Notes: generated by a model from the sequence alone, not told the origin. A stretch of 36,663 nt of DNA from Candidatus Komeilibacteria bacterium CG_4_10_14_0_8_um_filter_37_78 (GCA_002785295.1 PFMC01000013.1:1-36663), one strand, 5' to 3'. Shown: positions 3,509 to 21,945, counted from the first letter of the stretch. A program made the numbers and translations.

Positions 3509-3520
3509 TTTTTAAAATAT

Positions 3521-5567: not shown

Positions 5568-5582
5568 ATCATTAAATTACAA

Positions 5583-5597
5583 TGTACAAATTGTACA
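5583..5597. promoter_or_regulatory. perfect 7-1-7 palindrome TGTACAAATTGTACA (candidate operator)
   Basis: Read directly. It also forms a tandem 9-mer TGTACAAAT x2 (5583-5600) inside the 240-bp pilB-pilC spacer. Confidence 0.3.
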
Positions 5598-5641
5598 AAT
5601 AACAAACAAATTACAAATTTCAATATTCAAATTGTTTAGTC

Positions 5642-5686
5642 TTTGTGATTTGGTGCTTGATTCTTGTTTGTATTTTGGTGCTTGAT
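5642..5686. repeat. direct repeat with 25-bp period
   Basis: TTTGGTGCTTGAT at 5649-5661 and 5674-5686 (perfect). The flanks TTTGTGA/TTTGTAT extend the similarity. Confidence 0.85.
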
Positions 5687-5807
5687 AATTGTTATTTATT
5701 AAACTGCAATGTTCATTTTCTTAATAGCTAATTAGGTATTTAGCTACTTAGCCTTTAATTTTTCACTTTTTACTCATAACTTATAATTTTTAACTTAATC
5801 CACCCCC

Positions 5808-7016
5808 ATGCTATTTGATTATGTCGCTACATCAGCCGACGGTGCTGTTAAAAAAGGTGAGATCGAAGCTCCTGATAAAGGTGCGGCAATTTTATTATTG
5901 AAAAAACAAACACTGCAGATCGTCAAAGTAGAGCGTAAAACAAAGAAGGCAAAAAATGATATTGCGATTGGCGGCATAAAATTTGTTGATAAGGTCTTGT
6001 TGGCTAGGCATTTGGCAATTATGATCAAGGCAGGTGTCAATATGGCTGAAGCCTTGGAAATCTTAGTGGAGCAAGCTAGCAATCCAAAATTAAGAAAAAT
6101 ATTGACAGCAGTGTCGGCTAGAGTGGTAAATGGTCATACTCTATCTTCTTCCCTGGCCCTTTATCCTAAGGAGTTTTCTGAATTATTTATCAATATGATT
6201 GCGGTCGGCGAAACTAGTGGTACTTTAGCTGCCAATCTTGAGTATCTAGCTGGTGAGATGGAAAAAAGCTATGAATTAAAGAAAAAAATAAAATCAGCCT
6301 CAATTTATCCAATGATTGTCCTGATTGCTACTTTTGGGTTGGCTTTTATCTTGGTCTATTTTATTCTACCAAAGATGACAAAACTATTTGAAACCATGAC
6401 TGTCGAGCTACCATTATCGACTAGAATTTTGATTGCTGTGGCTAAGGGTTTTGAAGAACATGGTTTATTAATCTTGGTTATACTAGTGGCTGTGGTGGTT
6501 GGTGGATTTTTTACTCTACGACAAAAGAAAGTAAAAAAATATACCCACAAATTTTTATTAAAATTACCAGTGATGGGTCATATTTCTAAACAACTAAATC
6601 TAGCCAATTTCAATCGAACATTGGGCATTCTATTAACTAGTGGTGTGCCAGCAGTTGAAGCTTTGAATATCACCGCTGGCGTATTAAACAATTATACTTA
6701 TAAAGAAGAGGTTAGACTTTTGGCCAAAGCCGTGGAAAGAGGATTGTCTATTTCTGAAGCTTTGAGCACTCGTTCAACGAAAATCTTTCCACGCATGTCA
6801 ACCAGACTTTTAGGGGTGGGCGAAAAGACTGGTGAACTAGATAGCTCCCTCAACTATTTAGGAGATTTTTATAGCCGAGAAGTTGATAATATTACTAAGA
6901 ACTTATCAAATATTTTAGAACCAATGCTCTTGATCATTATTGGTCTGGCCGTTGGTTTTGTCGCTATTTCTATTATTCAGCCAGTTTATAAGATCTCTGG
7001 TGGTTTAAGAAAATAA
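5808..7016 (+). CDS. pilC: type IV pilus platform protein PilC (GspF family)
   Basis: 402 aa. N-terminus FDYVATSADGAVKKGEIEA. Two T2SSF-type repeats and three hydrophobic segments. Confidence 0.95.
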   Translation: MLFDYVATSADGAVKKGEIEAPDKGAAILLLKKQTLQIVKVERKTKKAKNDIAIGGIKFVDKVLLARHLAIMIKAGVNMAEALEILVEQASNPKLRKILTAVSARVVNGHTLSSSLALYPKEFSELFINMIAVGETSGTLAANLEYLAGEMEKSYELKKKIKSASIYPMIVLIATFGLAFILVYFILPKMTKLFETMTVELPLSTRILIAVAKGFEEHGLLILVILVAVVVGGFFTLRQKKVKKYTHKFLLKLPVMGHISKQLNLANFNRTLGILLTSGVPAVEALNITAGVLNNYTYKEEVRLLAKAVERGLSISEALSTRSTKIFPRMSTRLLGVGEKTGELDSSLNYLGDFYSREVDNITKNLSNILEPMLLIIIGLAVGFVAISIIQPVYKISGGLRK

Positions 7017-7017
7017 A

Positions 7018-7470
7018 ATGATTTTTTATCAAGCTAGAGGGTTCAATTTAGTACAAGTACTTTTGGTATTAGCAATCTTTATGATCATTGCTAGTTTTGC
7101 TATACCAAGTTTGTACCAATTGCAGACTGGTGTGCAGATTGATACTGTCGCTTCAGAAATGTCTCATAATTTACGGCGAGCGCAAATCAGAGCACTGAGT
7201 GGTTTTAATGATTCAAATTGGGGAGTCTATTGGCAAGAACGAAGCTATACTATTTTTGCTGGTGATTCTTTTGTTGCTAGAGATCAAGATTGGGATGAAG
7301 ATTATTTAATAACTGGTTCAGTGTTGATCAGCAATGATTTGGGTGACGAGATTATTTTTACTAAACAAACAGGTGAGCCAGATACTGCCGGTAGTATAAT
7401 TTTGACCAATCCCGCTAATGAAACATCCACTGTTTATATTAGTGAGTTGGGAGTGATTGATTTACAATAA
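7018..7470 (+). CDS. minor pilin-like protein (GspH/FimT-like) with Gln instead of Glu at mature position +5
   Basis: Class III-like signal MIFYQARG|FNLVQVLLVLAIFMII. Start is 1 nt after the pilC stop. 150 aa. Confidence 0.7.
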   Translation: MIFYQARGFNLVQVLLVLAIFMIIASFAIPSLYQLQTGVQIDTVASEMSHNLRRAQIRALSGFNDSNWGVYWQERSYTIFAGDSFVARDQDWDEDYLITGSVLISNDLGDEIIFTKQTGEPDTAGSIILTNPANETSTVYISELGVIDLQ

Positions 7471-7476
7471 ATTTTT

Positions 7477-10437: not shown

Positions 10438-10440
10438 AGA

Positions 10441-10944
10441 ATGAAGATTAATAAATTACAAAATTCTCAAGGATTTACCTTGCTAGAAGTCATCATCTAT
10501 ATGGCGATTGTTTCTGCTATTTTGACTGTGGCAATCTTTTTTGCTTGGTCGATTATTGGTAATCAATCTAAGAGTATGGTGGTGACTGAAGTCAATCAGA
10601 ATAGTAGATTTATTTTAGAAAGAGTGGGTCGTGACTTAAGGCAAGCGAGTAGTATTGCTAGTCTGGCTAGTGAACAGCTAGTACTCAATATCCTTGGTGG
10701 AGATCAATTAACTTTTGTTTTTGATGATATTAATCAGCAATTGACTAGACAATTAAACGAAGATACAGCAACTATTTTAAATAGCTCCTTGGTGGATGTT
10801 AGTGGTGCTTGGCAGAATTTGTCAGCCAATGATTCTGCTACTATTGGTCTGGATTTGACAGTTGCTTTCAAGACTAATAGCAATCACACAGACTGGCAAG
10901 CCAGCACCAGCACCTCATCAAGTTATGAATTACGAGTAAAATAA
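10441..10944 (+). CDS. minor pilin (PilW/GspJ-like)
   Basis: Prepilin signal MKINKLQNSQG|FTLLEVIIYMAIVSAIL. 167 aa. Confidence 0.75.
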   Translation: MKINKLQNSQGFTLLEVIIYMAIVSAILTVAIFFAWSIIGNQSKSMVVTEVNQNSRFILERVGRDLRQASSIASLASEQLVLNILGGDQLTFVFDDINQQLTRQLNEDTATILNSSLVDVSGAWQNLSANDSATIGLDLTVAFKTNSNHTDWQASTSTSSSYELRVK

Positions 10945-11321
10945 TGAAACTACAAAAAGATCAACAAGGTTTAATTGCACTAATATCTATTTTGGTTATT
11001 AGTTCTGTCGTGTTGTTAATCACAATCACGATGAGTTGGCAGTCAACTTCTGAATTACAAATGTCTTGGTGGACCAATCAATCTGAACAGGCTTATAGTT
11101 TGGCTGATAGTTGCTTGGAAGAAGGTTTGAATAAGTTGCGACTGAATTGGCAGAATTACAATGGCAATTTAGAGATTGATAGTAATTCGTGTATAATAGA
11201 AATAGAGACAACAGTTAATCTAGCTACTGTTGCTGTGATGGCCACTGTTGATCAAATCAATCGATCGATCATAGCCACCATTGATCAAAATTTTCAATTT
11301 ACAAACTGGCAAGAAAACTAA
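10944..11321 (+). CDS. PilX/GspK-like minor pilin-type protein lacking Glu+5
   Basis: MKLQKDQQG|LIALISILVISSVVLLITI. Overlapping TAATG junctions on both sides. 125 aa. Confidence 0.6.
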   Translation: MKLQKDQQGLIALISILVISSVVLLITITMSWQSTSELQMSWWTNQSEQAYSLADSCLEEGLNKLRLNWQNYNGNLEIDSNSCIIEIETTVNLATVAVMATVDQINRSIIATIDQNFQFTNWQEN

Positions 11322-13336
11322 TGTCAAAATTAAACAATTTTTTCGCTCTTGATATCAGTGATAATTCACTTGAAGTTTTGGGTTCTCAGAAAAATTTTTG
11401 GGGTCAAACGGTGATCAAAAATGTCAATCGTTTACCGCTAGAAAAGGGTTTGATTGTTGATGGTCAAATCAAAAATGCGAATGCTTTGATCAAGACGCTG
11501 AAAAAATTATTGGCCACAGCTAAGCCAACAAAAATAACTAGTAAGCACTGCTTGCTATCAATCCCGGAAAATAAGGTATTCACTCACATTTTTAAGGTTC
11601 CTAGTGCTCTGAAGGGCGATGAAATTGAGGAGTTTTTACTCAATCAAGCTGAAGGCATCATTCCTTTCAATCGGGAGACGGTTTATGCTGATTATGCTGA
11701 AATGGAGACCGATAATAAAGAAAAAAAGATTTTATATGTTGCTGCGCCAAAAAAATTGATTGATGATATCATTGCTATTTTAAAACAACTCAATATTACA
11801 GTCTTATTCATTGAGTTAGAGTCATTGTGTACATCGCGAGCTTTAATAGATAAAAAAACTGGCAAGAAAGCAACGATGATTATTGATATTGGTGGTAATT
11901 TTTCTAATATTGGCATTTTTGATAAGGGCGGTGTGAAATTAACGGTTAGTTTGCCAGTTGCCGGCAATCATATTACGCAGCAGATCAAAGCCAAAAACAA
12001 ACTAACGCTTGAAAAGGCAGAAGAAATTAAAGTGAGTAAAGGTTTGAAATCACCCAATAAGAAGGTTTTAGAAGCTATTCATAGTAGTCTTGATAAAATT
12101 ATTAGCGAAGCTACTCGTTCGATAGAGTATTATCAGCAAAAAACTGGTCAGGTAGTTGATCAATTATTAATCATTGGTGGTACAGCGCACCTTCCTGGTT
12201 TAAAAGATTATTTTACTCGGCAGATGGGAATGGAGATCATCATGGGCAATCCCTGGAATGTGATCAAAAAGGTGCCTAGTGTCAGTAAATATTTTCGTAA
12301 AGAGGACGCTTATCTATTTACCACAGTGATGGGTTTGATCGTCCGTGGTTTTGCTAAGAATTATAAGCAAGGTATCAATCTATTACCCAATGGTCGTCAA
12401 CAAAAAAAGGGATTTACTCTAGGGGAGGGGATCAAGAAAAGTTGGTGGAAAATTTTGGTTTTGATTTTAATAATTTGTGCTTTTACTGGGATTATTGTTT
12501 TTCGGGATAGTTTAAGAATGTCCAGAAAAGACAAAATAAGTAATACTGAGCAGGCAATTCAGTATCAAGTTGATTTCTCAGTTGATTATGGTAGCGAAGC
12601 AATGACTAGCATTGATATTCCACGTTTGCGGGGAGAGCTTATAGTCAATTATGGTACAGCAGAAGTAGTCTTAGTTAATATTTCAGTGGCAGATTTTCCC
12701 AGTCTGGCTGGTGATTATCTAGATTTACACAATGACACTAGTCAGTCTATTACCCTAAGAAAAGCATCACGTTTGGAGTTTAATGACCAAGTTTATTCAT
12801 TGGCGGAGATTGTCACCTTACCAGCACAAGCAGTGAAAACTGTCCAGGTTGTTAGTGAAGATAATACAGAAGTTGTTTTAGAACCAGGTAATTATAGTTT
12901 TGTTAGTTTAACGGCGGATCAACAACAAACAATTTATGGTATCAAAAATTATGAGTTGGCAACGCTTAGTCCAGAACAAGCCGCCAAGTTTGATATTGTT
13001 GAATTATCAACAGCTCAGGAGAATCTAAAGAAAATAGCAGCTGAAACCGCGACTTCATTTATTGATGATCGTTATATTATTAGTGAGCCAATTGATATTA
13101 AAGTGGTGAATGTGAGCTATCTGAGGCAAGGTGATCAATTAGCATTACGCGGAAATTTTGAATATACTTGGGTCAAAATCACAGAAGATGATTTATATTC
13201 GCTAATATTAGCCAATTATCCTGATAAGAATTTGGCTTTCGCTGAATTGGATCAAGCCCTATTAGAATTGAAGCCACTGAATATTAATGGCGCATCACAA
13301 ACAATGACAGTTTCTTCGCTGTGGACAATTCAGTAG
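11321..13336 (+). CDS. pilM: PilM-PilN fusion protein with a long C-terminal extracytoplasmic domain
   Basis: Actin-like PilM N-terminus (FFALDISDNSLEVLG, MIIDIGGNFSNIG, LLIIGGTAHLPGL). In-frame PilN signature INLLP (12374-12388). One TM segment WWKILVLILIICAFTGIIVF. Then about 277 aa of unassigned ectodomain. Confidence 0.85.
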   Translation: MSKLNNFFALDISDNSLEVLGSQKNFWGQTVIKNVNRLPLEKGLIVDGQIKNANALIKTLKKLLATAKPTKITSKHCLLSIPENKVFTHIFKVPSALKGDEIEEFLLNQAEGIIPFNRETVYADYAEMETDNKEKKILYVAAPKKLIDDIIAILKQLNITVLFIELESLCTSRALIDKKTGKKATMIIDIGGNFSNIGIFDKGGVKLTVSLPVAGNHITQQIKAKNKLTLEKAEEIKVSKGLKSPNKKVLEAIHSSLDKIISEATRSIEYYQQKTGQVVDQLLIIGGTAHLPGLKDYFTRQMGMEIIMGNPWNVIKKVPSVSKYFRKEDAYLFTTVMGLIVRGFAKNYKQGINLLPNGRQQKKGFTLGEGIKKSWWKILVLILIICAFTGIIVFRDSLRMSRKDKISNTEQAIQYQVDFSVDYGSEAMTSIDIPRLRGELIVNYGTAEVVLVNISVADFPSLAGDYLDLHNDTSQSITLRKASRLEFNDQVYSLAEIVTLPAQAVKTVQVVSEDNTEVVLEPGNYSFVSLTADQQQTIYGIKNYELATLSPEQAAKFDIVELSTAQENLKKIAAETATSFIDDRYIISEPIDIKVVNVSYLRQGDQLALRGNFEYTWVKITEDDLYSLILANYPDKNLAFAELDQALLELKPLNINGASQTMTVSSLWTIQ

Positions 13337-13343
13337 AATAAAA

Positions 13344-13372
13344 TTGTCAGAATGTGCAAAAAGTGATATACT
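13344..13372 (+). promoter_or_regulatory. candidate sigma70 promoter for the pilin gene
   Basis: -35 TTGTCA (13344-13349), 17-nt spacer, extended -10 TGATATACT (13364-13372). Confidence 0.5.
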
Positions 13373-13468
13373 ATAAGCAGTTTATTAAGCATATTTATAT
13401 AATAAATTAAATTAAATTGCCCCCACATAATTTTTTACGCGAGGGTAATGTAAGAAAGGGTAACAACA

Positions 13469-13933
13469 ATGCGTAAAGGTTTTACCTTAATCGAGTTGTT
13501 AATTGTTATCGGCATTATTGCCATCTTAGCAGCTTTAACATTCGTCGCTGTAGATCCTGCTACTCGTTTCGCAGAAGCAAGAAATGCAGAACGTTGGTCA
13601 GCTGCTAATTCAGTATTGAATGCTGTGCTTAAGTATCAAGTTGATAATGATGGCACTATGCCATCAGGTCTTGATGCTGTAGCTGGTAGTTCACAGGTAT
13701 TAGGTACAGCTGCCACAGGTTGTGATTCAACTTGTACAGCAGACACTACAGTTGCTACTTGCGTTGATCTAAGTACTGATCTAGTATCAAAGTATTTAGC
13801 ATCAATACCACAAGATCCAAGTACAGGAGCAGCTACTAATACAGATTATTACATCAATGTTGACGCTAATGGTCGTCTAGCTGTTGGTGCATGTGATCCA
13901 GAATTATCTGAAACCATTACAGTTTCTCGATAA
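13469..13933 (+). CDS. pilA: type IV pilin (major pilin candidate)
   Basis: MRKG|FTLIELLIVIGIIAILAAL. 154 aa, A/T-rich, four Cys. Has its own promoter-like element and a terminator. Confidence 0.9.
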   Translation: MRKGFTLIELLIVIGIIAILAALTFVAVDPATRFAEARNAERWSAANSVLNAVLKYQVDNDGTMPSGLDAVAGSSQVLGTAATGCDSTCTADTTVATCVDLSTDLVSKYLASIPQDPSTGAATNTDYYINVDANGRLAVGACDPELSETITVSR

Positions 13934-13948
13934 TAATTTTCTCCTTAG

Positions 13949-13981
13949 AACCCCTCTTCTGTACAGGAGAGGGGTTTTTTG
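13949..13981 (+). terminator. rho-independent terminator
   Basis: Stem CCCCTCT (13951-13957) pairs with AGAGGGG (13968-13974), extendable by two further pairs. It is followed by TTTTTT (13975-13980). Confidence 0.85.
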
Positions 13982-14007: not shown

Positions 14008-14976
14008 ATGAAGTGTAAAATACTATGCATTGGTGGTATTAGCCAGGATGTAATTTTTAATACCTCTGATGCCAACATTATCAGCAAAAAAAAGGACAAC
14101 CGTGCTCAGCAGTATATAGCATTTAATTTTGGCTCAAAAAATTCATCTCCTAGTGTGATGCGAACTTATGGTGGTGGTGCTTTAAATAGTGCTGCTTCTT
14201 TTATTTCTTTAGGAATCAAAGCTGTGCCAATGTCTGTTATTGGCGACGATTTTATTGGTCAGGAAATTTTTTTATACTTAAAACGAAAGAAGATTAATAA
14301 AAAGTTGATCAAAGTATTACCTCAAGAGCAAACAGCATTTTCTTTTATTATTAATTTACCACAAGCCAATGAGCACGTTTTATTTTTTAGTAATGAAGTT
14401 TTAAGTAAATTTAGAGTGACTGAAAGTGATTTACGACCAGTATTGACCAATTGGATTTATCTTAGTTCCTTGCGTAGTATTTCTGCACCCTATAGTATTG
14501 CTCGTATTTTTGACTATGCGAAAGAGAAAGCAGCCAAAATATTTTGGAATCCCGGACAACAGCAGATCAGAACTTTTGAACAATATCACAAATATTTACC
14601 ACAGGTTGATTTTTTCAGCATCAACAAAGCCGAGGCATTAGCGCTTGCTAAAGAACTGAAAGTAAAAGGCAAAAGTGAGTCACAAATTGCGCAGGGTTTG
14701 ATCAAATTGGGCGCTCAGGCAGTATTGATAACAGATGGTAGTAAAGGGGTCAATTATTATGATCAAAAAACGCACTATCAACAAGTAGCCAAGACAGTTA
14801 AAGTAGTCAATACTACTGGTGCTGGCGATGCTTTTAATGCTGGTTTTTTAGCTGGTTTCCTGCATTATGATCAAGATATTCAAAGATCTCTTGAATTAGG
14901 AATCAAAAATTCAGCAGCAATCATCCAGACTATGGGAGCTCATCAAGGGTCATTAACGATCAAAAATTTATACTGA
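14008..14976 (+). CDS. PfkB-family carbohydrate kinase (ribokinase-like)
   Basis: N-terminal ILCIGGISQDVIF and C-terminal signature NTTGAGDAFNAGFLAGF. Confidence 0.85.
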   Translation: MKCKILCIGGISQDVIFNTSDANIISKKKDNRAQQYIAFNFGSKNSSPSVMRTYGGGALNSAASFISLGIKAVPMSVIGDDFIGQEIFLYLKRKKINKKLIKVLPQEQTAFSFIINLPQANEHVLFFSNEVLSKFRVTESDLRPVLTNWIYLSSLRSISAPYSIARIFDYAKEKAAKIFWNPGQQQIRTFEQYHKYLPQVDFFSINKAEALALAKELKVKGKSESQIAQGLIKLGAQAVLITDGSKGVNYYDQKTHYQQVAKTVKVVNTTGAGDAFNAGFLAGFLHYDQDIQRSLELGIKNSAAIIQTMGAHQGSLTIKNLY

Positions 14977-17003
14977 TGAATTTAGATAATTTTTTCCAAC
15001 CAAAGTCTATTGCTTTAATTGGTGCTTCTCGAGACACTACTTCTTTAGGTTTTAATCTTCTCAATAATTTATTGAAATATGGCTATGCTGGTAAATTGTA
15101 TCCGGTTAATCCTAAAGCCAAGACCATTCTCAATCTTATTTGCTTTTCAGCAGTCAAAGAGATCAAAGGAATTATTGATTTGGCGATTATCATGGTGCCA
15201 GCAGCAATAGTTAAAAATGTGTTGATTGAATGTGGCCAAAAAAAGATCAAGGCAGCGATTATCATTTCGTCTGGCTTCAAAGAAATGGATGCTACCGGAG
15301 CAGAGTTGGAAAAAGAATTGGTGATGATAGCAGCAAATTATCATATGCGTTTGCTCGGACCAAATTGTTTAGGTTTGATCAACCCACATCTAAATTTAAA
15401 CGCATCATTTGCCGAGGGTTTACCAGAACGGGGGAATATTTCATTGATTTCACAATCTGGTGCGATGGCTGTGGCTATTTTGGACTGGGCTTACCAAACA
15501 AAATTGGGTTTTAGTAAAATTGTCAGTATTGGAAATAAAGCAGACTTGTCAGAGATAGAATTGCTAGAATATTTAGCTCAGGATAAGTCAACTGAGGTTA
15601 TTTTATTATATTTAGAAAGTATCAAAGATGGTCGTCGTTTTATGGAAATAGCTAGTGAGATCAGTTTGCGAAAACCAATCATTGCTTTGAAAGCTGGTAA
15701 TAGTGCTGCAAGTCAGCAAGCGATTTTGTCACATACTGGCTCTTTGGCTGGTTCACTGCAGACAGTTGAGACAGCTTTTAAACAATGTGGCATCATCAAA
15801 GCCAATTCCATTGAAGATTTATTTGATTATGCCAAGGGTTTTAGTTTGGCCCCACCATTAAAGAATAATAGAGTAGCGGTGATCACCAATGCTGGTGGCT
15901 TGGGTATCGTCACTACTGATGCTTTGACTGAGACTACATTGCAATTGGCAACATTATCGACTAGCACAAAAAGCAAGTTAAAAGAAAAATTACCAGCATC
16001 TAGTAGTGTCAACAATCCAGTTGATTTGGTTGGTGATGCTTTAACTGATCGCTATGATTGGGCTTTACAGCAGGTCTTAGCTGACAAGGGCGTTGATGGT
16101 GTGATGGTCATTTTGACATCTCAGACGATGACGCAGGAGGATCAGACAGCAGAGTTGATCGTAAAATATGTTAAGCAAACAAAAAAGCCAATTTTTACTT
16201 GTTTTATGGGTGGTCAAGATATAAATTCTGGGCGTATTATTTTGTATCAAAATAATGTACCAAATTTTGAATTCGTTACTAGAATGGTTAAGACTGTGGA
16301 GCAGATGTATTTATACCAAAGCCAAAAAATAACAGTAAAGTTTGCCAACATTAAGTATCGTGAAAAGCAAATTGTTCATGATCAGCAACAATTACCAACT
16401 ATCGAGTGCGAGAAATTATTAATTAAGCACAAATTACCAGTCTTAAAAAGTGAGTTAATAACCGATCTTGGTGATTTGGTAAAAATAAAACAATGGCCAA
16501 TTGTGATGAAGATTGCTTCAACTGACATTATTCATAAAAAAGCTAGCAATGCTGTCGAGCTTAATATCAATACAATTGAAGCTGCACGGATGTCTTATCA
16601 AAGTATCATTCATAATGTTCAGAAAATTAACCCTAATGCCGACATTGATGGTGTACTATATCAACCCATGATGGCGTTGGGTCAAGAGATCATCATTGGC
16701 ATGAAAAGAGATGCAAGTTTTGGACCGGTGATGATGTTCGGGATGGGTGGTTCATTAGTAGAAATCTTTAAGGATCTTAGTTTTGCGATAGCTCCAGTGT
16801 CCAAAGAACAGGCTATGAAGATGATCACTAGGATTAGGAGTTTTGAGTTAATCAAAGATTATGATTTGTCTGCTTTAGCTGATATAATAGTAAGACTGGC
16901 TAACTTTTCATTAAGCTATAATCAGATCAGCTCGATTGATTTGAATCCAGTAATGCTTTATCAAAAAGGAGCTAAAATAGTAGATGTCAGAATAATGTTA
17001 TGA
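14976..17003 (+). CDS. acd: acetate--CoA ligase (ADP-forming), fused alpha/beta domains
   Basis: CoA-binding N-terminus PKSIALIGASRD, phosphohistidine loop LSHTGSLAG, C-terminal ATP-grasp-like region. 675 aa. Confidence 0.92.
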   Translation: MNLDNFFQPKSIALIGASRDTTSLGFNLLNNLLKYGYAGKLYPVNPKAKTILNLICFSAVKEIKGIIDLAIIMVPAAIVKNVLIECGQKKIKAAIIISSGFKEMDATGAELEKELVMIAANYHMRLLGPNCLGLINPHLNLNASFAEGLPERGNISLISQSGAMAVAILDWAYQTKLGFSKIVSIGNKADLSEIELLEYLAQDKSTEVILLYLESIKDGRRFMEIASEISLRKPIIALKAGNSAASQQAILSHTGSLAGSLQTVETAFKQCGIIKANSIEDLFDYAKGFSLAPPLKNNRVAVITNAGGLGIVTTDALTETTLQLATLSTSTKSKLKEKLPASSSVNNPVDLVGDALTDRYDWALQQVLADKGVDGVMVILTSQTMTQEDQTAELIVKYVKQTKKPIFTCFMGGQDINSGRIILYQNNVPNFEFVTRMVKTVEQMYLYQSQKITVKFANIKYREKQIVHDQQQLPTIECEKLLIKHKLPVLKSELITDLGDLVKIKQWPIVMKIASTDIIHKKASNAVELNINTIEAARMSYQSIIHNVQKINPNADIDGVLYQPMMALGQEIIIGMKRDASFGPVMMFGMGGSLVEIFKDLSFAIAPVSKEQAMKMITRIRSFELIKDYDLSALADIIVRLANFSLSYNQISSIDLNPVMLYQKGAKIVDVRIML

Positions 17004-18187
17004 TCAAAAAAGTAATTATATTAAGTTTTGTTTTGCTCTTTGGTTGCTGGGTCAATAATACTCAAGCAGCGACTTATGATTTGAAACTAGAGAGTGGTGA
17101 TATCAGTTTTTCCGAAAGCGTCTTGATTGCTGGTAGTACAGTCAGAGTTTATGCTCGTATTTATAATACTGGCACTGAAGATATCGCTGGTTATGTCACT
17201 TTTTATCGTGGTGCTGCCATCGTTGATGATTCACAAACTGTTTCAGTCAGGCCAGGCAATTTTGCAGATGCCTGGGTTGATTTCCAAGTGCCAAATACAG
17301 CTTTTAATGTTTTAGCCAGAATTCAAGGCACACAACCAGCTGATCAAAATACCAGTAATAATGAAGCTTTAACTGGTTTGGTCACTCCAGATTTTGATAC
17401 TGATGGTGATGGTATTGCCAATTCGATTGATCCAGATGACGATAATGATAGTTTGACTGATTTGCAAGAACAACAATTGGGAACCAATCCTCTGGATACA
17501 GATTCTGACAATGATGGTGCTAGTGATTCGCAAGATGCTTTCCCTTTAAATAGCAATGAACAATTGGATACAGACAATGATACTATTGGTAATAATGCTG
17601 ATCCAGATGACGATAATGATGGCTTAGTTGATACAGAGGAAATATCTTTAGGAACCAATCCTTTGCTTGCTGACTCTGATGGGGATGGCGTTAATGACAA
17701 AAATGATTTTTATCCTCTGGATGGTAATCGTTCGGTTGAAGTAAGAGACATTTTTGAGCCAACACCAGAACTGAATAATAACGATGATAGTGAATTGCCT
17801 AGCGATACAGATGTTTTGCAAGATTTACAGAATATTTTGGATCAGACACAGGCATTGGATGATCAAGATGAGCCATTGCAAATTGACGCTATTATCAATT
17901 CGAATTTTAATCAATCCAAGGATGATAGTCAGCAAGGTTTTTGGCAAGCAATCTCGCAATGGTGGCTCTGGTTGATCGTCAGCATTGTGATGGTTATCGC
18001 TATTGCAGCTTATTATTTATATTTTCATTGGTTGGATAAAAAATATTTAGTAGCAAGGCCAGTGCAAGAAAAATTGGTTGTGGAAAAAGCCTTACCTGCA
18101 AAAACGATTAAACTGCAGCCAACCGTAACGCCACTTGATTTAAGACAGGGTCGTAGTAATAAGCGTTCACATAAAATGGATTTATAA
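17000..18187 (+). CDS. secreted, C-terminally membrane-anchored surface protein with a CARDB-like domain and thrombospondin type-3-like Ca-binding repeats
   Basis: Signal peptide MIKKVIILSFVLLFGCWVNNTQA. CARDB-like IAGSTVRVYARIYNTGTEDIAG. Repeats DTDGDGIANSIDPDDDND, DTDSDNDGASD, DTDNDTIGNNADPDDDNDG and DSDGDGVNDKND. Acidic linker and TM segment WWLWLIVSIVMVIAIAAYYLYF. Confidence 0.8.
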   Translation: MIKKVIILSFVLLFGCWVNNTQAATYDLKLESGDISFSESVLIAGSTVRVYARIYNTGTEDIAGYVTFYRGAAIVDDSQTVSVRPGNFADAWVDFQVPNTAFNVLARIQGTQPADQNTSNNEALTGLVTPDFDTDGDGIANSIDPDDDNDSLTDLQEQQLGTNPLDTDSDNDGASDSQDAFPLNSNEQLDTDNDTIGNNADPDDDNDGLVDTEEISLGTNPLLADSDGDGVNDKNDFYPLDGNRSVEVRDIFEPTPELNNNDDSELPSDTDVLQDLQNILDQTQALDDQDEPLQIDAIINSNFNQSKDDSQQGFWQAISQWWLWLIVSIVMVIAIAAYYLYFHWLDKKYLVARPVQEKLVVEKALPAKTIKLQPTVTPLDLRQGRSNKRSHKMDL

Positions 18188-18188
18188 A

Positions 18189-19232
18189 ATGAAGAAACTA
18201 TTAACTGGTAATGAAGTGATCGTCCAAGCAGCTCTAGCTTCTGGTGCTTTGGGTTATGCTGGTTATCCGATCACGCCGGCGACTGAGATCATGACTGAGT
18301 GGGATAAAGCCTTTGTTAAAGATAAGAATTTACGTTTTTTACAAACCGAAGATGAGATGTCTGCTGGCTTTGTCACTATTGGGATGATTATGGGTGGAAT
18401 TAAGGCTTTTACAGCTACAGCCGGTCCTGGTAATACTTTAATGCAAGATCCTTTGACCATGGCTGAGAATATGCGTATTCCAATGGTAGTGATTATTGCT
18501 CAACGTGGTGGTCCTTCTACTGGATCTGTGATCTATTCACAGCAAGAAGTAATACTTTCTGGTTGGGGTGGAAATTCAGAGGGATACCGAGTTGTTTATT
18601 CACCTTCAAACATACAGGAGCTTTATGACTATACTATTAAGGCTTTTAATACAGCTTGGACCCATATGTTTCCAACTATTGTTCTGACCGATGGCTATGT
18701 TGTAAAAACTAGACAGTCAGTAGATATTTATCAGCCAAAAAAGCTAGTTAAGTCTCATCCTTTAGTAGTAAAAAGTTATGAGCGGAATGCAGATAAAGAA
18801 TTGGATTACCAGAATCTTTCTAATACTTTTGTGACAGAGGAGCAAAGTTATGAGGTTAATATGGATTTAATGAATGCTTTTAAGAAGATGACACCAAAGG
18901 TTGTAGAATCTGAAGTGTATCAGAAGGGAAACTACAAAACTTTAATAATTGTGCATGGTCTTGTAGCAGGGGCAGCCAAAGAAGCTGTAGATATGAAGGG
19001 TAAAGAAAAGAAATTTGGACTATTTAGGCCAATTACTTTAAACCCGTTCCCAATTAATGAATTAAAGAAGGCAGCTAGGGGAGTGAAACAGATTATTGTC
19101 GCAGAATCAGCTCATAACCAACTACAAAAGCTAGTTAAAGAAGCTTTGTATGGTGAGCATATTAATATTAAACAATATGGCCGACCAGGCCTTGGTATTA
19201 CACCAGAAGAATTAATTAAATTAGTTAAATAA
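18189..19232 (+). CDS. 2-oxoacid:ferredoxin oxidoreductase, alpha subunit
   Basis: LTGNEVIVQAALASGALGYAGYPITPATEI, typical of the POR/KOR alpha N-terminus. 347 aa. Confidence 0.9.
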   Translation: MKKLLTGNEVIVQAALASGALGYAGYPITPATEIMTEWDKAFVKDKNLRFLQTEDEMSAGFVTIGMIMGGIKAFTATAGPGNTLMQDPLTMAENMRIPMVVIIAQRGGPSTGSVIYSQQEVILSGWGGNSEGYRVVYSPSNIQELYDYTIKAFNTAWTHMFPTIVLTDGYVVKTRQSVDIYQPKKLVKSHPLVVKSYERNADKELDYQNLSNTFVTEEQSYEVNMDLMNAFKKMTPKVVESEVYQKGNYKTLIIVHGLVAGAAKEAVDMKGKEKKFGLFRPITLNPFPINELKKAARGVKQIIVAESAHNQLQKLVKEALYGEHINIKQYGRPGLGITPEELIKLVK

Positions 19233-19233
19233 T

Positions 19234-19716
19234 ATGAAAAAAACAAAAGGTTTTACACTATTAGAATTGCTAGTTGTTATAGCTATTATTGGCTTGATCT
19301 CAACTTTTGCTGCTGTTCAGTTGAATTCGGGTAGAGAAAAAGCTAGAGATGCTAAGAGAATAGCGGATGTTAAGGCTGTGCAAACAGCGATGGAGTTTAT
19401 TTATGATGATAATGGTGATTATGATTTAGCAGCATGTACTGATACGGATGATCCTATCGGAATACATACCTGTACTAGTTCTGGTCTGGAAACATATATT
19501 CCTCGGGTAGCTGATTTGCAAGATCCCAGTGCAACAACCCTTGCAGGGTGTATTGATGCTGCTGCTGCTGTCTGCCAGATGAGTTTTGCTACCCGACCTA
19601 CTGGTAGTGCTCAAGCTTACACAATCCATTTTTATTTAGAACAAGCAAATGCAGCTCTGGGGACAACAGCGGCGGCTGATTGTACTGCCACTGAAAACGG
19701 TATTGACTGTTCCTAA
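19234..19716 (+). CDS. type IV pilin / GspG-like pseudopilin
   Basis: MKKTKG|FTLLELLVVIAIIGLISTFA followed by REKARDAKRIADV. Six Cys, including the C-terminal loop CTATENGIDCS. Confidence 0.9.
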   Translation: MKKTKGFTLLELLVVIAIIGLISTFAAVQLNSGREKARDAKRIADVKAVQTAMEFIYDDNGDYDLAACTDTDDPIGIHTCTSSGLETYIPRVADLQDPSATTLAGCIDAAAAVCQMSFATRPTGSAQAYTIHFYLEQANAALGTTAAADCTATENGIDCS

Positions 19717-19741
19717 TTAATAATTTATTTAGTGTCAGAAT

Positions 19742-20230
19742 ATGAGAAGAGCTGGATTTACATTACTGGAATTACTTGTAGTTATTGCGATCATTGGTTT
19801 ACTTTCTACTTTTGCTGTTGTTAGTTTAAATTCTGGAAGAGCCAAGGCAAGGGATGCGAGAAGAGCTTCAGATATTCGTCAAATAATGACAGCTTTAGAG
19901 TTTTATTTTGATGATGTTGGTGAATATCCGGAAACTATTGCCACAAGAATAATTTTAATCGGCAGTTCGGCAGCAGATGTGTTGTGTTATGATCAAGGAG
20001 ATAGTATACCAACGATTGGCTTTTATTCTAGTGAAGCACCGTGTGAAATAGTCTATATGGCTGAAGTGCCGACGGATCCACAAAATTCTAGTCCTTATCG
20101 TTATACATATTTGAATAATACAGGCGCTACCGATTCCTATACAATTACTTTTGAATTAGAAAATCCTAATACAGCCTGGGGGGCAGATACAGATTGTCAA
20201 GCCAGTCCAGGAATAGTAGTTTGTGATTAA
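19742..20230 (+). CDS. type IV pilin / GspG-like pseudopilin (paralog of the preceding gene)
   Basis: MRRAG|FTLLELLVVIAIIGLLSTFA followed by RAKARDARRASDI. C-terminal loop CQASPGIVVCD. Confidence 0.9.
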   Translation: MRRAGFTLLELLVVIAIIGLLSTFAVVSLNSGRAKARDARRASDIRQIMTALEFYFDDVGEYPETIATRIILIGSSAADVLCYDQGDSIPTIGFYSSEAPCEIVYMAEVPTDPQNSSPYRYTYLNNTGATDSYTITFELENPNTAWGADTDCQASPGIVVCD

Positions 20231-20245
20231 TTTTTTAAAAATTTA

Positions 20246-20974
20246 ATGTCAGATTTAACAGTTCCAAAGTGTTGGAAGTTATCTTCCAAGCCACATAACT
20301 TTTGTCCAGGCTGTGGATACCCAATAATGTATAAAGCATTGGGTGAAAACATAGATGAGATGAAATTACAGAACAAGACCTTTATTGGTTTAGATATTGG
20401 TTGTGCTTTACTTTCCTGGGATTTTTTTAATGTCGATACGATGCAGACACATCATGGCCGAACCATCCCAGTTGTGGTTGGTTTTAAAAAAGTTCAACCA
20501 GATTCTGTCGGCATTGCAATTGTTGGCGATGGTGGTGGCTACGCAATTGGAGCACAGCACCTGATCAATGCTCGGATGCGTAATGAACCAATGACAGTAA
20601 TAGTAGTCAACAATGCTGTCTATGGCATGACTGGTGGACAAGAAGCACCAACATCCTTACCTGGTCAGATAACATCTACTTCAGTGACTGGAGCAGATCA
20701 ACATATTATTCAAGGATCAAGGATGTTAACTGAAATGCTCGATGATGAGGTGTATATAGCTCGTGGCTCGGTAGACAATCTAATTCAACTAAAGACATTT
20801 ATTAAAAGAGCTCTAGAGTGGCAAATCAATAAGAAAGGTTTTTCTCTGGTTGAAGTATTGTCTTTTTGTCCAACCAATTGGCATACTGACGCCAAACAAA
20901 CTAGAGCCTTTTTAAATACCATGAAGCAGCGTTATCCAGTAGGCGAATTTAAATTAAAAAAGAATAAAGAGTAA
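20246..20974 (+). CDS. 2-oxoacid:ferredoxin oxidoreductase, beta (TPP-binding) subunit
   Basis: FCPGCGYP and the TPP motif region IVGDGGGYAIGAQHLINA...NNAVYGMTGGQ. Confidence 0.92.
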   Translation: MSDLTVPKCWKLSSKPHNFCPGCGYPIMYKALGENIDEMKLQNKTFIGLDIGCALLSWDFFNVDTMQTHHGRTIPVVVGFKKVQPDSVGIAIVGDGGGYAIGAQHLINARMRNEPMTVIVVNNAVYGMTGGQEAPTSLPGQITSTSVTGADQHIIQGSRMLTEMLDDEVYIARGSVDNLIQLKTFIKRALEWQINKKGFSLVEVLSFCPTNWHTDAKQTRAFLNTMKQRYPVGEFKLKKNKE

Positions 20975-21526
20975 ATGATAAAGCGTTTAGAAAAAAAATT
21001 GAATATTTGTATTGCTGGCGAAGGTGGTCAAGGAGTGCAAACTATTGCCAAGGTGATTGTTAACACAGCTTTTCAGCAAAATTTGGAAGCAACTTATGTC
21101 CCCAATTATGGCGTTGAACAAAGAGGTGGAGTTTCGATTGCTTTTGTTCGTTTAGCTGACCAGCACATTTCTTATCCCAAGTTTGAGACAGCAGATGTGG
21201 CCATTCTTTTATCAGATCGATCTTATGAGCGGATCAAACAGCATATTGGTCAGCAGACCAAGGTTATTTATAATAAAGATTTTATTACCAGGAGATTGCC
21301 GTTTAAATTCAAGGGTTATCGTTTTGATCAACTCGCTAATGATTTGGGCGAGCATCGTGTTTTTAATATGTTGATTCTAGGAAAACTAGTAAAGATGATC
21401 AATATTTTTGAGCTAGAGGATATCATCAATACTACCCATCAGAAGTTTGCCAGTAAATATGAGAAGAATCAGAAATTGAAAGAATTCAATGCTCAGGCAA
21501 TAGAAATGGGTTATCAATTGAAATGA
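20975..21526 (+). CDS. 2-oxoacid:ferredoxin oxidoreductase, gamma subunit
   Basis: ICIAGEGGQGVQTIAKV (GxGGQG). 183 aa. Start abuts the beta stop. Confidence 0.9.
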   Translation: MIKRLEKKLNICIAGEGGQGVQTIAKVIVNTAFQQNLEATYVPNYGVEQRGGVSIAFVRLADQHISYPKFETADVAILLSDRSYERIKQHIGQQTKVIYNKDFITRRLPFKFKGYRFDQLANDLGEHRVFNMLILGKLVKMINIFELEDIINTTHQKFASKYEKNQKLKEFNAQAIEMGYQLK

Positions 21527-21792
21527 TGGAAAAAAAAGATTTTAAAACATATCGTCAGGAAACCAAGGAGATGATTTATGACAATCATCTAGCTTTGTGT
21601 AAGGGTTGTGGTCTTTGTATCGAGTATTGTCCTGTGAAGTGTATCAAATTTCACGAAACAAATCGGGGACATTTTGGCAGTCCAGCTATTAACGCTGATC
21701 TTGATATTTGTACAAAATGTCGGATGTGCGAGCGGATTTGCCCTGATGGGGCAATTCATATTAAAATAAAGGAACTAAAGGAGAAGAAATAG
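21523..21792 (+). CDS. 2-oxoacid:ferredoxin oxidoreductase, delta subunit (2x[4Fe-4S] ferredoxin)
   Basis: Two cluster motifs, CKGCGLCIEYCP and CTKCRMCERICP. 89 aa. ATGA overlap with gamma. Confidence 0.9.
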   Translation: MMEKKDFKTYRQETKEMIYDNHLALCKGCGLCIEYCPVKCIKFHETNRGHFGSPAINADLDICTKCRMCERICPDGAIHIKIKELKEKK

Positions 21793-21909
21793 TCTTTTCA
21801 GTTTTTTTTGATATTATGATAAAATAAGGTATTATGGTTAAATTGTTAAATGGTTGTTGAGAGTGAAATTAACAATTTAACAATATGACAATTTATCAAT
21901 TTAATTAGT

Positions 21910-21934
21910 AGTTGGGTCGCCAACTTTTTATTTT
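21910..21934 (+). terminator. weak hairpin plus T-tract (possible terminator of the OFOR operon)
   Basis: AGTTGG (21910-21915), loop GTCG, CCAACT (21920-21925), then TTTTATTTT. Confidence 0.35.
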
Positions 21935-21945
21935 CAATAAACCTT

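What the first reader, a model, noticed from the sequence alone, without database searches (positions are those of the whole stretch)
18189..20974. Two pilin genes sit between the alpha and beta subunit genes of a 2-oxoacid:ferredoxin oxidoreductase
- **Junctions:** the alpha stop is at 19232 and the first pilin ATG at 19234. The second pilin stops at 20230 and the beta ATG is at 20246. Beta, gamma and delta then abut or overlap.
- **Transcription:** I see no terminator or obvious promoter between them, so the pilins look co-transcribed with a core energy-metabolism enzyme and split its catalytic subunit pair.
- **Pilin features:** both have intact class III signals (KG|FTLLELLVV.., AG|FTLLELLVV..). 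Both have GspG-like ARDA[KR]R helices and a C-terminal disulfide loop (C-x8-C).
- **Age of the duplication:** they differ at many synonymous sites in the conserved N-terminus, so the duplication looks old and maintained.
- **Significance:** OFOR operons are normally uninterrupted. This implies either stoichiometric coupling of pilin supply to fermentative flux or an unrecognised functional link. It also gives the locus three full-length pilins, so which one is the major subunit is unclear.
Basis: partly seen in the sequence, partly recalled or inferred. Interest (0 to 1): 0.62.

Follow-up and report, generated by a model that had tools for sequence, protein, structure and literature searches.

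The report
Swappable pilin slot inside OFOR operon
In a group of ultrasmall groundwater bacteria (Komeilibacteria), one or two genes for pilus subunits sit permanently between two subunit genes of a core fermentation enzyme, and their outer domain is repeatedly swapped by recombination; this looks like a variable surface-protein slot carried in a housekeeping operon, not a working link between enzyme and pilus.

Summary
Window 18189-21792 encodes OFOR alpha, two intact type IV pilins (pil1, pil2), then beta, gamma and delta, with 0-25 nt spacers and no terminator.

It is not a misassembly. Four independently assembled runs and a second MAG (alpha 97% identical) show the same layout.

The slot is old. 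Eight lineages of one Komeilibacteria clade (alpha 75-97%) carry a pilin between alpha and beta. One syntenic lineage and a sister clade do not.

New findings:
- **Cassette swapping.** In three close genome pairs, 86-94% identical flanks break at pilin codon 42-60 and resume at the pilin stop. The C-terminal domain is exchanged between the pilin N-terminal helix and OFOR beta.
- **pil1** is the resident slot pilin (dN 0.15 versus L006, like alpha). Its C-domain occurs only in this slot.
- **pil2** is not a tandem duplicate of pil1. It groups with the major pilin of a second pilus cluster.
- **The upstream pilin (13469)** is separate, conserved, and has its own terminator.

Related OFOR operons carry other inserts (NUDIX, methylase, Cys-rich protein, another pilin). 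The premise that such operons are normally uninterrupted therefore fails in this group.

Co-transcription is likely but untested, because no RNA data exist. A functional OFOR-pilus link is unsupported.

The parts
13469..13933 (+). pilA: conserved stand-alone pilin at the end of pilus cluster 1. It is not part of the slot and serves as the comparator.
   Evidence: N_methyl match. It is 82-96% identical across lineages. It forms a separate deep clade in the pilin tree. Only 13 of its first 50 mature residues match pil1 or pil2.
13947..13978 (+). Strong intrinsic terminator after pilA. It marks the start of the downstream gene string 14008-21792.
   Evidence: 14-bp stem followed by a T run. Fold energy -22 kcal/mol, z -4.17, and 0 of 200 shuffles fold as well.
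14008..18187 (+). Upstream genes of the same tightly packed string: pfkB-family kinase (14008-14976), ADP-forming acetyl-CoA synthetase (14976-17003), and a TSP3-repeat membrane/surface protein (17000-18187).
   Evidence: Pfam and NCBIfam matches. Gaps between genes are -1, -4 and +1 nt.
18189..19232 (+). OFOR alpha subunit.
   Evidence: POR_N at E 2.7e-42 and PFOR_II at E 2.1e-13. dN 0.019 and dN/dS 0.035 against L023.
19234..19414 (+). pil1 signal peptide plus conserved N-terminal helix. This is the 5' homology arm of the cassette.
   Evidence: The window/L023 flank alignment (86.6% nt) runs through alpha and ends at 19414. The breakpoints are equivalent in the pairs L001/L038 and L040/L028.
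19415..19716 (+). pil1 C-terminal globular domain, 'type A'. This is the resident slot allele and carries 6 Cys.
   Evidence: 77% aa identity to the L006 slot pilin; whole pil1 against that pilin has dN 0.154. Only 4 clusters in 5.8 billion proteins have this domain, and all lie between alpha and beta. AF2 model pLDDT 82.
19717..19741 (+). pil1-pil2 spacer holding a short relic of the beta start (…TTTAGTGTCAGA, against beta's TTTAATGTCAGA).
   Evidence: It aligns with the L023 post-pilX spacer. That spacer continues into a 61-nt copy of the beta 5' end.
19742..20230 (+). pil2: second slot pilin, 'type B', of the cluster-2 major-pilin type, with 4 Cys.
   Evidence: N_methyl and T2SSG matches. 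Nearest database relatives are 49-55% identical; three whose loci were examined (49-54%) are the pilin of PilB-RR-PilT-PilC-pilin-PilD clusters. It nests in that clade with 97/92 support. 41-43 of its first 50 mature residues match those pilins. AF2 pLDDT 90.6.
20246..20974 (+). OFOR beta subunit. It also serves as the 3' homology arm of the cassette.
   Evidence: TPP_enzyme_C match. The GDG…NN motif and four Cys (CxxC…C…C) are read directly from the translation. Flank alignments resume at 20244 in the window, and at the pilin stop in the other pairs.
20975..21792 (+). OFOR gamma (20975-21526) and delta (21523-21792; two CxxCxxCxxxCP motifs).
   Evidence: POR and Fer4 matches. The gamma and delta genes overlap by 4 nt.
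21910..21925 (+). Weak terminator-like hairpin after delta. It is the first such site downstream of 13978 that lies outside a gene.
   Evidence: Consensus scan. The fold of 21793-21940 scores only z -1.49.

Best explanation
pil1 and pil2 are genuine 'orphan' type IV pilin genes. They occupy a heritable slot between the alpha and beta genes of a 2-oxoacid:ferredoxin oxidoreductase in one Komeilibacteria (Patescibacteria) clade.

**Shown**
- The slot was already present in the common ancestor of the window/L023 pair and the L006/L001/L038/L040/L028 group.
- It holds one or two pilins.
- The first 40-60 or so codons (signal peptide plus assembly helix) are conserved. The C-terminal surface domain is replaced as a cassette.
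- The recombination breakpoints lie in the N-terminal helix and at the pilin stop / beta start.
- As a result, very close relatives carry unrelated alleles (types A, A*, X, Y, Z, B).
- pil1 (type A) is the ancestral resident and is under purifying selection.
- pil2's body is of the type used as the major pilin by a second pilus cluster (PilB-PilT-PilC-pilin-PilD) in relatives.
- A relic of the beta start between the two pilins marks a duplication-type junction.

**Inferred**
- The pilins are transcribed by read-through with the OFOR genes. There is no room or signal for separate punctuation, so they get constitutive expression from a central fermentation operon.
- They are processed by a prepilin peptidase. 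Because their assembly helix matches the cluster-2 pilin, they are probably incorporated into cluster-2-type pili as variable or alternative subunits.
- Variation of the exposed domain serves host or surface recognition, or escape from phages.
- Conserved flanking sequence makes allele exchange between strains easy.
- The enzyme and the pilus do not work together.
For: **Identity of the pilins**
- N_methyl and GspG-type N-termini.
- PDB sequence matches to pilin and pseudopilin helices.
- AF2 models show a helix plus beta-sheet 'lollipop' (pLDDT 82 and 90.6). The top Foldseek hits are almost all type IV pilins.

**Reality and age of the slot**
- Independent assemblies agree.
- alpha-pilin-beta occurs in L001, L006, L023, L028, L030, L038 and L040, from NCBI, ENA, JGI and Logan samples.

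**Selection**
- pil1 against the L006 pilin has dN 0.154, compared with 0.140 for alpha. dS is saturated.

**Cassette replacement**
- Window versus L023: alpha, beta and pilA have dS 0.25-0.56 and dN about 0.02. The pilin C-domains have dS 1.2-1.4 and dN 0.47-0.81.
- Breakpoints in the window are at 19414 and 20244.
- L001 versus L038: flanks are 93-94% identical, with the break from codon about 42 to the stop.
- L040 versus L028: flanks are 88-89% identical, with the break from codon about 57 to the stop.
- Pilin types alternate on the species tree.

**Slot-specific type A.** Only 4 clusters in the database carry it, and all are in the slot.

**Origin of pil2.**

**Junction relic.**

**Read-through**
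- Spacers are 1, 25 and 15 nt.
- There is no terminator or hairpin at the junctions, while pilA has a strong one.
- The tight spacing is conserved in all lineages.
- The organism barely uses Shine-Dalgarno motifs, so the lack of an RBS tells us nothing.

**Precedent.** Saccharibacteria TM7x has two pilus systems plus orphan pilins at separate loci (PMC11623550).
Against: - No RNA data exist for this organism. Co-transcription is therefore inferred only, and a promoter hidden inside alpha or a pilin gene cannot be excluded.
The presence of a prepilin peptidase and of pilus cluster 2 in this organism is extrapolated from relatives.
- The Foldseek matches are not individually significant (best E 0.09).
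- The placement of the pilin-less lineage L024 is unresolved (71/58 support). A single gain and a gain followed by loss cannot be told apart.
- Surface-protein genes recur in OFOR operons of other Patescibacteria. This could mean that the location is selected and is not just tolerated.
Confidence: 0.65

Rival explanations
1. Selected co-expression or functional coupling. The pilins are kept inside the OFOR operon because subunit supply must scale with fermentative flux, or because the pilins tether or serve the enzyme. The extreme version has them as conductive 'e-pili' that dispose of ferredoxin electrons.
For: - The slot has been kept in at least 8 lineages with very tight spacing.
- Distant Patescibacteria also place a type IV pilin after gamma (L042) or a Cys-rich anchored protein between alpha and beta (L041).
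- Earlier scan notes report VirB2-like pilin genes inside POR operons of Falkowbacteria-type genomes (a lead only).
- The best PDB sequence match of the N-terminal helix is Geobacter PilA-N, at E 1e-9 to 1e-11.
Against: - L024 keeps the whole syntenic operon with alpha and beta 32 nt apart and no pilin.
- Clade B has no pilin either.
- Unrelated C-domains replace one another while alpha and beta remain under the same strong constraint.
- The Geobacter match covers only the generic N-terminal helix.
- pil1 has 6.5% aromatic residues. pil2 has 10.2% but a 30-residue aromatic-free gap. Both proteins are about 155 aa and have globular domains.
- Non-surface genes (NUDIX, DNA methylase) also interrupt related operons.
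Confidence: 0.15
2. Old tandem duplication maintained by selection. Under this reading, pil1 and pil2 are paralogues born in place. They diverged gradually and are both kept as subunits.
For: - The relic of the beta start between the two pilins, in both the window and L023, shows a duplication-type junction.
- The N-termini are 73% identical in nt with saturated dS.
- The two-pilin layout is shared by the window and L023.
Against: - pil2 groups with cluster-2 major pilins, not with the slot pilins.
- The type A domain sits in position 1 in the window but in position 2 in L023.
- Between the window and L023, C-domain dS is 2-5 times that of the flanks.
- The 61-nt relic in L023 is 95% identical to beta, while the pilin bodies cannot be aligned. 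Gradual divergence in place cannot produce this.
Confidence: 0.1
3. Neutral, decaying insertion or an assembly artefact. Under this reading, the pilin ORFs are passengers without function, or a chimeric join.
For: - One syntenic lineage lacks the insert.
- Gene order in these co-directional arrays is loose.
Against: - Four independent assemblies and a second MAG agree.
- All 10 slot pilins examined are intact, with invariant G|FTLLE…, R, D and Y positions.
- Type A orthologues have dN like alpha, with saturated dS.
Confidence: 0.03

Closest known systems
Orphan pilins and dual type IV pilus systems of Saccharibacteria (Nanosynbacter lyticus TM7x; PMC11623550)
   Same: - Both are Patescibacteria with two pilus machineries.
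- Both have small major pilins of the lollipop type.
- Both have additional pilin genes (PilJ, PilK in TM7x) at loci away from the machinery.
- In TM7x the pili are tied to host binding and competition.
   Different: - Here the orphan pilins lie inside a metabolic operon, between two catalytic subunit genes.
- Here the pilins show cassette-like allele turnover.
- Nothing about them has been tested experimentally.
Pilin allele replacement between conserved flanks. Examples are the Pseudomonas aeruginosa pilA groups between pilB and tRNA-Thr, and serogroup variation of Dichelobacter nodosus fimA (from my own knowledge, not checked here).
   Same: - The N-terminal helix is conserved and the C-terminal domain is hypervariable.
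- Discrete allele types are distributed without regard to strain phylogeny.
- Exchange happens by homologous recombination that uses conserved flanking sequence.
   Different: - In those cases the flanks are pilus or tRNA genes, and the gene is the single major pilin with its own promoter.
- Here the 3' arm is an OFOR subunit gene.
- Here the slot can hold two pilins.
- Here a separate conserved pilin (pilA, 13469) exists.
Neisseria pilE/pilS antigenic variation (from my own knowledge)
   Same: The variable pilin C-domain is replaced by recombination, while the N-terminus stays constant.
   Different: - Neisseria uses silent promoterless pilS copies within the same genome and a G4-dependent gene-conversion mechanism.
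- No silent copies or G4 motif were seen here.
- The variation here is between strains, not shown within a lineage.
Four-subunit 2-oxoacid:ferredoxin oxidoreductase operons (por/vor/kor type)
   Same: - The alpha, beta, gamma and delta genes are all present, with TPP and Fe-S motifs and strong purifying selection.
- The neighbouring acetate-forming genes fit a pathway from pyruvate through acetyl-CoA to acetate plus ATP.
   Different: - The catalytic alpha/beta pair is split by 1 kb of unrelated genes.
- Scores fall below every NCBIfam equivalog cut-off, so substrate specificity is unassigned.
POR operons interleaved with VirB2-like (PF18895) Cys-rich 'pilin-like' genes in Falkowbacteria-type Patescibacteria. 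These are earlier notes of this scan, and are unchecked leads.
   Same: - A core oxidoreductase operon of Patescibacteria hosts fast-evolving genes for surface-filament-type proteins.
- Those follow-up notes read the arrangement as most likely shared transcription, not shared function.
   Different: - The protein family is different. Here the proteins are class III-signal type IV pilins (PF07963), not T4SS VirB2-like hairpins.
- The lineage is different.
- No DsbA gene heads the operon here.

Membership tests
Type IV pilin / pseudopilin (class III signal peptide proteins) | A short basic leader ending in Gly, then F/M at +1 and Glu at +5 (the prepilin peptidase site), followed by about 20 hydrophobic residues. 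| tested here: met
   pil1 reads MKKTKG|FTLLELLVVIAIIGLISTF and pil2 reads MRRAG|FTLLELLVVIAIIGLLSTF. PF07963 matches at E 1.3e-8 and 1.3e-7. TIGR02532 scores are above its cut-off.
Type IV pilin / pseudopilin (class III signal peptide proteins) | A long N-terminal alpha-helix packed against an antiparallel beta-sheet globular domain ('lollipop'). | tested here: inconclusive
   - The AF2 models have helices at 9-60 and 8-59, followed by beta-strands. pLDDT is 82.2 and 90.6.
- The top Foldseek PDB hits are nearly all type IV pilins, but E is 0.09-3 and TM is 0.3-0.46.
- The result is consistent with the fold but not significant on its own.
Type IV pilin / pseudopilin (class III signal peptide proteins) | A C-terminal disulfide-bonded loop (D-region) in type IVa pilins. 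| tested here: met
   The terminal C-x8-C is present in both pilins (pil1 mature C144/C153; pil2 mature C147/C156). The Cys pair is present in all nine slot pilins and in most database relatives in the family alignment. The disulfide bonding itself is inferred.
Type IV pilin / pseudopilin (class III signal peptide proteins) | A prepilin peptidase and assembly machinery (PilB/PilC) in the same genome. | tested here: inconclusive
   - PilB, PilC and a PilM fusion are in the window.
- No Peptidase_A24 gene is in the window.
- PilD sits beside the cluster-2 pilin in three relatives.
- The window's own genome could not be searched.
Type II secretion major pseudopilin GspG | Full-length match to the GspG family (TIGR01710 / PF08334), including the C-terminal calcium-binding domain, and a T2SS gene cluster with secretin. 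| tested here: not met
   - TIGR01710 scores 41 and 51 bits against a cut-off of 88.85, and only residues 5-65 match.
- PF08334 matches only residues 34-68 of pil2.
- No secretin or gspD-M genes are in the window.
Conductive 'e-pilin' (Geobacter PilA-N type) | A short pilin (about 60-90 aa) with high aromatic density and no long aromatic-free gaps (the criteria are recalled from the literature). | tested here: not met
   - The mature proteins are 154 and 157 aa and have globular domains.
- Aromatic content is 6.5% for pil1 and 10.2% for pil2. Both have a 30-residue aromatic-free gap at positions 19-49.
- The PDB match to Geopilin covers only the generic helix.
2-oxoacid:ferredoxin oxidoreductase, four-subunit type | Alpha (POR_N + domain II), beta (TPP-binding with GDG…NN and a 4-Cys cluster), gamma (POR domain III) and delta (2x[4Fe-4S] ferredoxin). 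| tested here: met
   - All four subunits have Pfam hits.
- The motifs were read directly from the translations.
- dN/dS is 0.035-0.09.
- Substrate is not assigned, because all NCBIfam equivalog scores are below cut-off.
Single operon (co-transcription of alpha-pil1-pil2-beta-gamma-delta) | One transcript spans all the genes, with no internal terminator or promoter. | not testable with these tools
   The sequence is compatible with this. No RNA runs hold the stretch.

The most novel reading that the evidence does not exclude
The OFOR/POR operon may be a convergently used expression platform for host-contact filament subunits in Patescibacteria.
- Unrelated pilin families have been captured into it in separate lineages and then retained. 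Type IV pilins appear here and in L042. VirB2-like or Cys-rich anchored proteins appear elsewhere.
- The proposed reason is that tying surface-filament supply to the flux of the main energy-yielding enzyme is adaptive for episymbionts that have almost no transcriptional regulators.
- In the strongest form, pil2 is the relocated major pilin of the second pilus system. Pilus production in this organism would then depend on transcription of the fermentation operon.
Probability: 0.15. Interest if true: 0.7.

Novelty: new variant of a known kind. Interest (0 to 1): 0.45.

Why it matters
**Relevance to Patescibacteria biology**
- Type IV pili are the best-supported host-contact organelles of Patescibacteria. 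How these uncultured episymbionts vary their contact surfaces is almost unknown.
- This locus gives a concrete, sequence-defined example of a hypervariable pilin slot. It has mapped recombination breakpoints, a resident allele under purifying selection, and discrete replacement alleles among near-identical genomes.
- Such a slot can serve as a marker for strain-level host range or phage pressure in groundwater metagenomes.

**Relevance to operon interpretation**
- 'Operon' context in these co-directional, promoter-poor genomes is a weak guide to function. The catalytic pair of a core enzyme can be split for long evolutionary periods without harm.

**If the placement is selected**
- Surface-protein genes recur in OFOR operons of separate lineages. 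If this proves non-random, it would point to a simple wiring rule of reduced genomes: put what must always be made into the operon that is always on.

Tried and rejected
I could not scan the window's own genome or a set of relatives for PilD, pilus cluster 2 or further pilins.

**Searches that gave nothing useful**
- The RNA search found no runs. The transcription question stays open.
- Runs holding only 55-79% of the words were checked for strain variants in the slot. They turned out to hold the same strain at 3-5x depth, so they were uninformative.
- The promoter scan gave chance-level hits only.
- The search for an RBS was uninformative, because about 30 of 34 genes lack a Shine-Dalgarno motif.
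- The literature search found no published report of pilin genes inside OFOR operons of CPR bacteria.

**Readings that were tested and rejected**
- Misassembly.
- GspG/T2SS identity. Only the N-terminal helix matches, and scores are below cut-off.
- e-pilin.
- Simple tandem duplication.
- Checking the earlier-note claim of VirB2-like pilins in POR operons on my own loci. L041 has an N-anchored Cys-rich protein between alpha and beta, but with no PF18895 match at E <= 0.1. The lead was therefore confirmed only in the general sense that the operon is interrupted by a surface-protein gene.


Full report
**1. What is in the window**

All 37 ORFs of at least 100 aa lie on the + strand and are tightly packed. 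The layout is as follows.
- Positions 1913-13933 hold a type IV pilus cluster: histidine kinase, receiver, PilB, PilC, minor pilins including a 986-aa lectin-bearing one, a PilM fusion, and a 154-aa pilin, pilA, at 13469-13933.
- pilA is followed by the only strong intrinsic terminator in the region (13947-13978; 14-bp stem; z -4.17).
- From 14008 to 21792 ten genes follow with gaps of -4 to +25 nt. They are a pfkB kinase, ADP-forming acetyl-CoA synthetase, a TSP3-repeat membrane protein, OFOR alpha, pil1, pil2, and OFOR beta, gamma and delta.

**2. No signals separate the genes**
- No terminator-like site lies at the alpha/pil1, pil1/pil2 or pil2/beta junctions.
- Promoter-like matches are at chance level (37 found, 37.1 expected).
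- The junction RNAs fold no better than shuffled sequence (z +0.49, +0.43, -0.83).
- The missing Shine-Dalgarno motifs mean nothing, because about 30 of the 34 genes in the window lack one.

**3. The arrangement is not an artefact**
- Contigs assembled independently from four public groundwater or aquifer runs cross the whole stretch colinearly with 0-1 mismatches.
- A separate NCBI MAG of Candidatus Komeilibacteria (L023) has the same alpha-pilin-pilin-beta order. Its alpha is 97% identical in aa and its flanks are about 86.5% identical in nt.

**4. Distribution in relatives**

I collected 42 loci from genome, metagenome and assembly collections.
- Eight distinct lineages carry a pilin between alpha and beta: the window, L023, L006, L001 (also seen as L031-33), L028/29, L030/L007, L038/39 and L040. 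The first two have two pilins and the rest have one. Their alpha is 75-97% identical to the window's.
- In all of them the spacing is tight: 1-8 nt before the pilin and 9-15 nt after it.
- L024-26 (alpha 74%) share the full synteny from pilA to recJ, but alpha and beta are 32 nt apart with no pilin.
- A sister clade (alpha 60-65%; L002-5, L008-10, L013, L015, L027) has alpha next to beta.
- A concatenated tree (pfkB, TSP3, alpha, beta, gamma, delta) gives clade A at 100/100. Clade A contains (window, L023), (L006, (L001, L038), (L040, (L028, L030))) and L024.
- The position of L024 inside clade A is unresolved (71/58). The slot was therefore either gained once after L024 split off, or gained earlier and lost in L024.

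**5. The operon is interrupted in other ways elsewhere**
- In clade B a NUDIX gene lies between beta and gamma (L010; split into two ORFs in L027).
- In L015 an N6_N4 DNA methylase plus a DUF6996/6997 protein lie between beta and gamma.
- In L041 (alpha 56%) a 130-aa N-anchored Cys-rich protein and two other ORFs separate alpha and beta. Three membrane ORFs separate gamma and delta.
- In L042 (alpha 49%) a 154-aa type IV pilin of the same family (G|FTLIELLVVIAVIGLLAT…ARKKARDAER) follows gamma directly and precedes recJ.
- The premise that OFOR operons are uninterrupted therefore does not hold in this part of the tree.

**6. What the pilins are**
- Both have the class III signal, Glu5, a hydrophobic helix, and a C-terminal C-x8-C.
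- By sequence, only the N-terminal helix matches solved structures: Geobacter PilA-N, GspG, PilA and PilE.
- AlphaFold models built with alignments A4 and A3 give a helix of about 52 residues followed by a beta-sheet domain (pLDDT 82.2 and 90.6).
- Foldseek ranks type IV pilins first, but not significantly.
- They are not GspG. Scores are below cut-off, only the helix matches, and there are no T2SS genes.

**7. The three pilins are three different things (pilin tree)**
- *pilA.* Its orthologues form a deep separate clade. They are 82-96% identical across clade A, so they track the housekeeping genes.
- *Resident slot pilins.* Types A, A*, X, Y and Z are monophyletic (100/97).
- *Type A.* This type covers pil1 and the slot pilins of L006, L038 and L040.
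  - Its C-domain occurs in only 4 clusters out of 5.8 billion proteins, and all four lie between alpha and beta.
  - pil1 against the L006 pilin has dN 0.154, compared with 0.140 for alpha, with saturated dS. It is therefore under purifying selection.
- *pil2.* It lies outside the slot clade and inside the clade of the pilin that sits between PilC and PilD in a second pilus cluster of relatives (PilB-RR-PilT-PilC-pilin-PilD-minor pilins; 97/92).
- *Assembly helix.* In the first 50 mature residues, pil2 shares 41-43 residues and pil1 shares 33 with those cluster-2 pilins. Both share only 13 with pilA.

**8. Cassette turnover**
- *Window versus L023.* The flank alignment runs through alpha into pil1 and stops at 19414 (codon 60). 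It resumes at 20244, two bases before beta. Within the block:
  - the pil1 N-terminus matches the first L023 pilin;
  - the pil2 N-terminus matches the second L023 pilin (84% nt);
  - the pil1 C-domain matches the second L023 pilin (70% nt).
- *Divergence.* The C-domains have dS 1.2-1.4 and dN 0.47-0.81. Alpha, beta and pilA have dS 0.25-0.56 and dN about 0.02.
- *Other close pairs.* Two more close pairs show the same geometry.
  - L001 (type Y) versus L038 (type A): flanks 93-94% identical, with the break from pilin codon about 42 to the stop.
  - L040 (type A) versus L028 (type Z): flanks 88-89% identical, with the break from codon about 57 to the stop.
- *Conclusion.* The exchanged unit is the C-terminal domain. 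The homology arms are the pilin's own N-terminal helix and OFOR beta.
- *Junction relic.* In L023 a 61-nt copy of the beta start, 95% identical to the real one, lies between the two pilins. The window's 25-nt pil1-pil2 spacer keeps the same spacer sequence plus the first 8 nt of beta with one change. This is a duplication-type junction that predates the window/L023 split.

**9. Interpretation**
- The best reading is a long-lived, hypervariable orphan-pilin slot carried in a constitutively needed operon.
- The pilins are probably assembled by cluster-2-type machinery.
- Surface variation is the likely selective driver.
- Conserved flanks ease exchange between strains.
- Two pilus systems and orphan pilins are documented experimentally in Saccharibacteria TM7x, where pili mediate host binding and competition (PMC11623550).
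- Co-transcription with OFOR is likely but not shown.
- A mechanistic enzyme-pilus link is unsupported, for three reasons: L024 lacks the slot, the alleles are interchangeable, and the OFOR genes are under unchanged constraint.

**10. Context from earlier notes of this scan (leads only)**
- Other readers saw pilA as an autonomous unit and noted the TSP3 gene embedded in the same string.
- In Falkowbacteria-type genomes they saw POR operons interleaved with VirB2-like pilin genes.
- My own sampling confirms only that surface-protein genes recur in these operons (L041, L042). Whether this is more than chance needs a survey that I could not run.

**11. Limits**
- No RNA data exist.
- The e-pilin criteria and the Pseudomonas, Dichelobacter and Neisseria parallels come from my own knowledge.

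Noticed in passing
window 14976-17003, compared with L006:3157-4868, L001:3148-4862 and L024:3106-4817: The acetate-forming step differs at the same position between pfkB and the TSP3 gene. The window and L023 have a 675-aa ADP-forming acetyl-CoA synthetase. L001, L006, L024, L028 and L038 have a PduL-type phosphotransacylase plus acetate kinase. This is a non-orthologous replacement inside a conserved gene string.
   Followed up: partly
window 20975-21526 (OFOR gamma): Gamma is only 73% nt / 76% aa identical between the window and L023 (dS 1.9). The neighbouring alpha, beta, delta and recJ genes are 88-90% nt identical. This suggests a second local recombination import next to the pilin slot.
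   Followed up: partly
L023:7521-7581: A 61-nt relic of the beta 5' end forms a 19-codon ORF (MSDLTVPKCWKLSSKPHNF*). Its stop lies 4 nt before the ATG of the second pilin. It is 95% identical to the real beta start, although the junction appears older than the window/L023 split. Possible causes are gene conversion or selection, for example as a coupling leader.
   Followed up: partly
L015:6872-8456; L010:6772-7407; L027:6392-7044: In the sister clade, OFOR beta and gamma are separated by an N6_N4 DNA methylase plus a DUF6996/6997 protein (L015), or by a NUDIX hydrolase gene (L010). In L027 the NUDIX gene is split into two ORFs.
   Followed up: partly
L042:7660-8124: A distant Patescibacteria genome (alpha 49%) has a 154-aa type IV pilin (N_methyl + DUF1559) directly after OFOR gamma and before recJ. 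No delta gene is present. The OFOR-recJ-RNase H synteny is shared with the window.
   Followed up: partly
L041:6044-7036 and L041:8449-9347: Another Patescibacteria lineage (alpha 56%) has three ORFs between alpha and beta: a 32-aa ORF, a 130-aa N-anchored Cys-rich ORF (leader ...RTRG|FILPLALIV, which is pilin-like but lacks Glu5), and a 144-aa acidic ORF. Three membrane ORFs lie between gamma and delta.
   Followed up: partly
window 17000-18187: A 395-aa signal-peptide, TSP3-repeat, C-terminally anchored surface protein overlaps the acetyl-CoA synthetase stop and ends 1 nt before alpha. It is conserved at this position throughout clade A (46-85% identity) and absent from clade B. It is a second surface-protein gene fixed in the same metabolic string.
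   Followed up: partly
window, all gene starts: Only about 4 of 34 genes have any Shine-Dalgarno-like motif upstream. The whole 36.6-kb window is co-directional, and most intergenic gaps are under 20 nt.
   Followed up: partly
L034:440-8935, L035 and L036: Relatives carry a second complete pilus cluster (PilB with MshEN, receiver, PilT-like ATPase, PilC, a 157-159-aa pilin, PilD, minor pilins) next to DNA ligase. Komeilibacteria therefore have two type IV pilus systems, like Saccharibacteria.
   Followed up: partly
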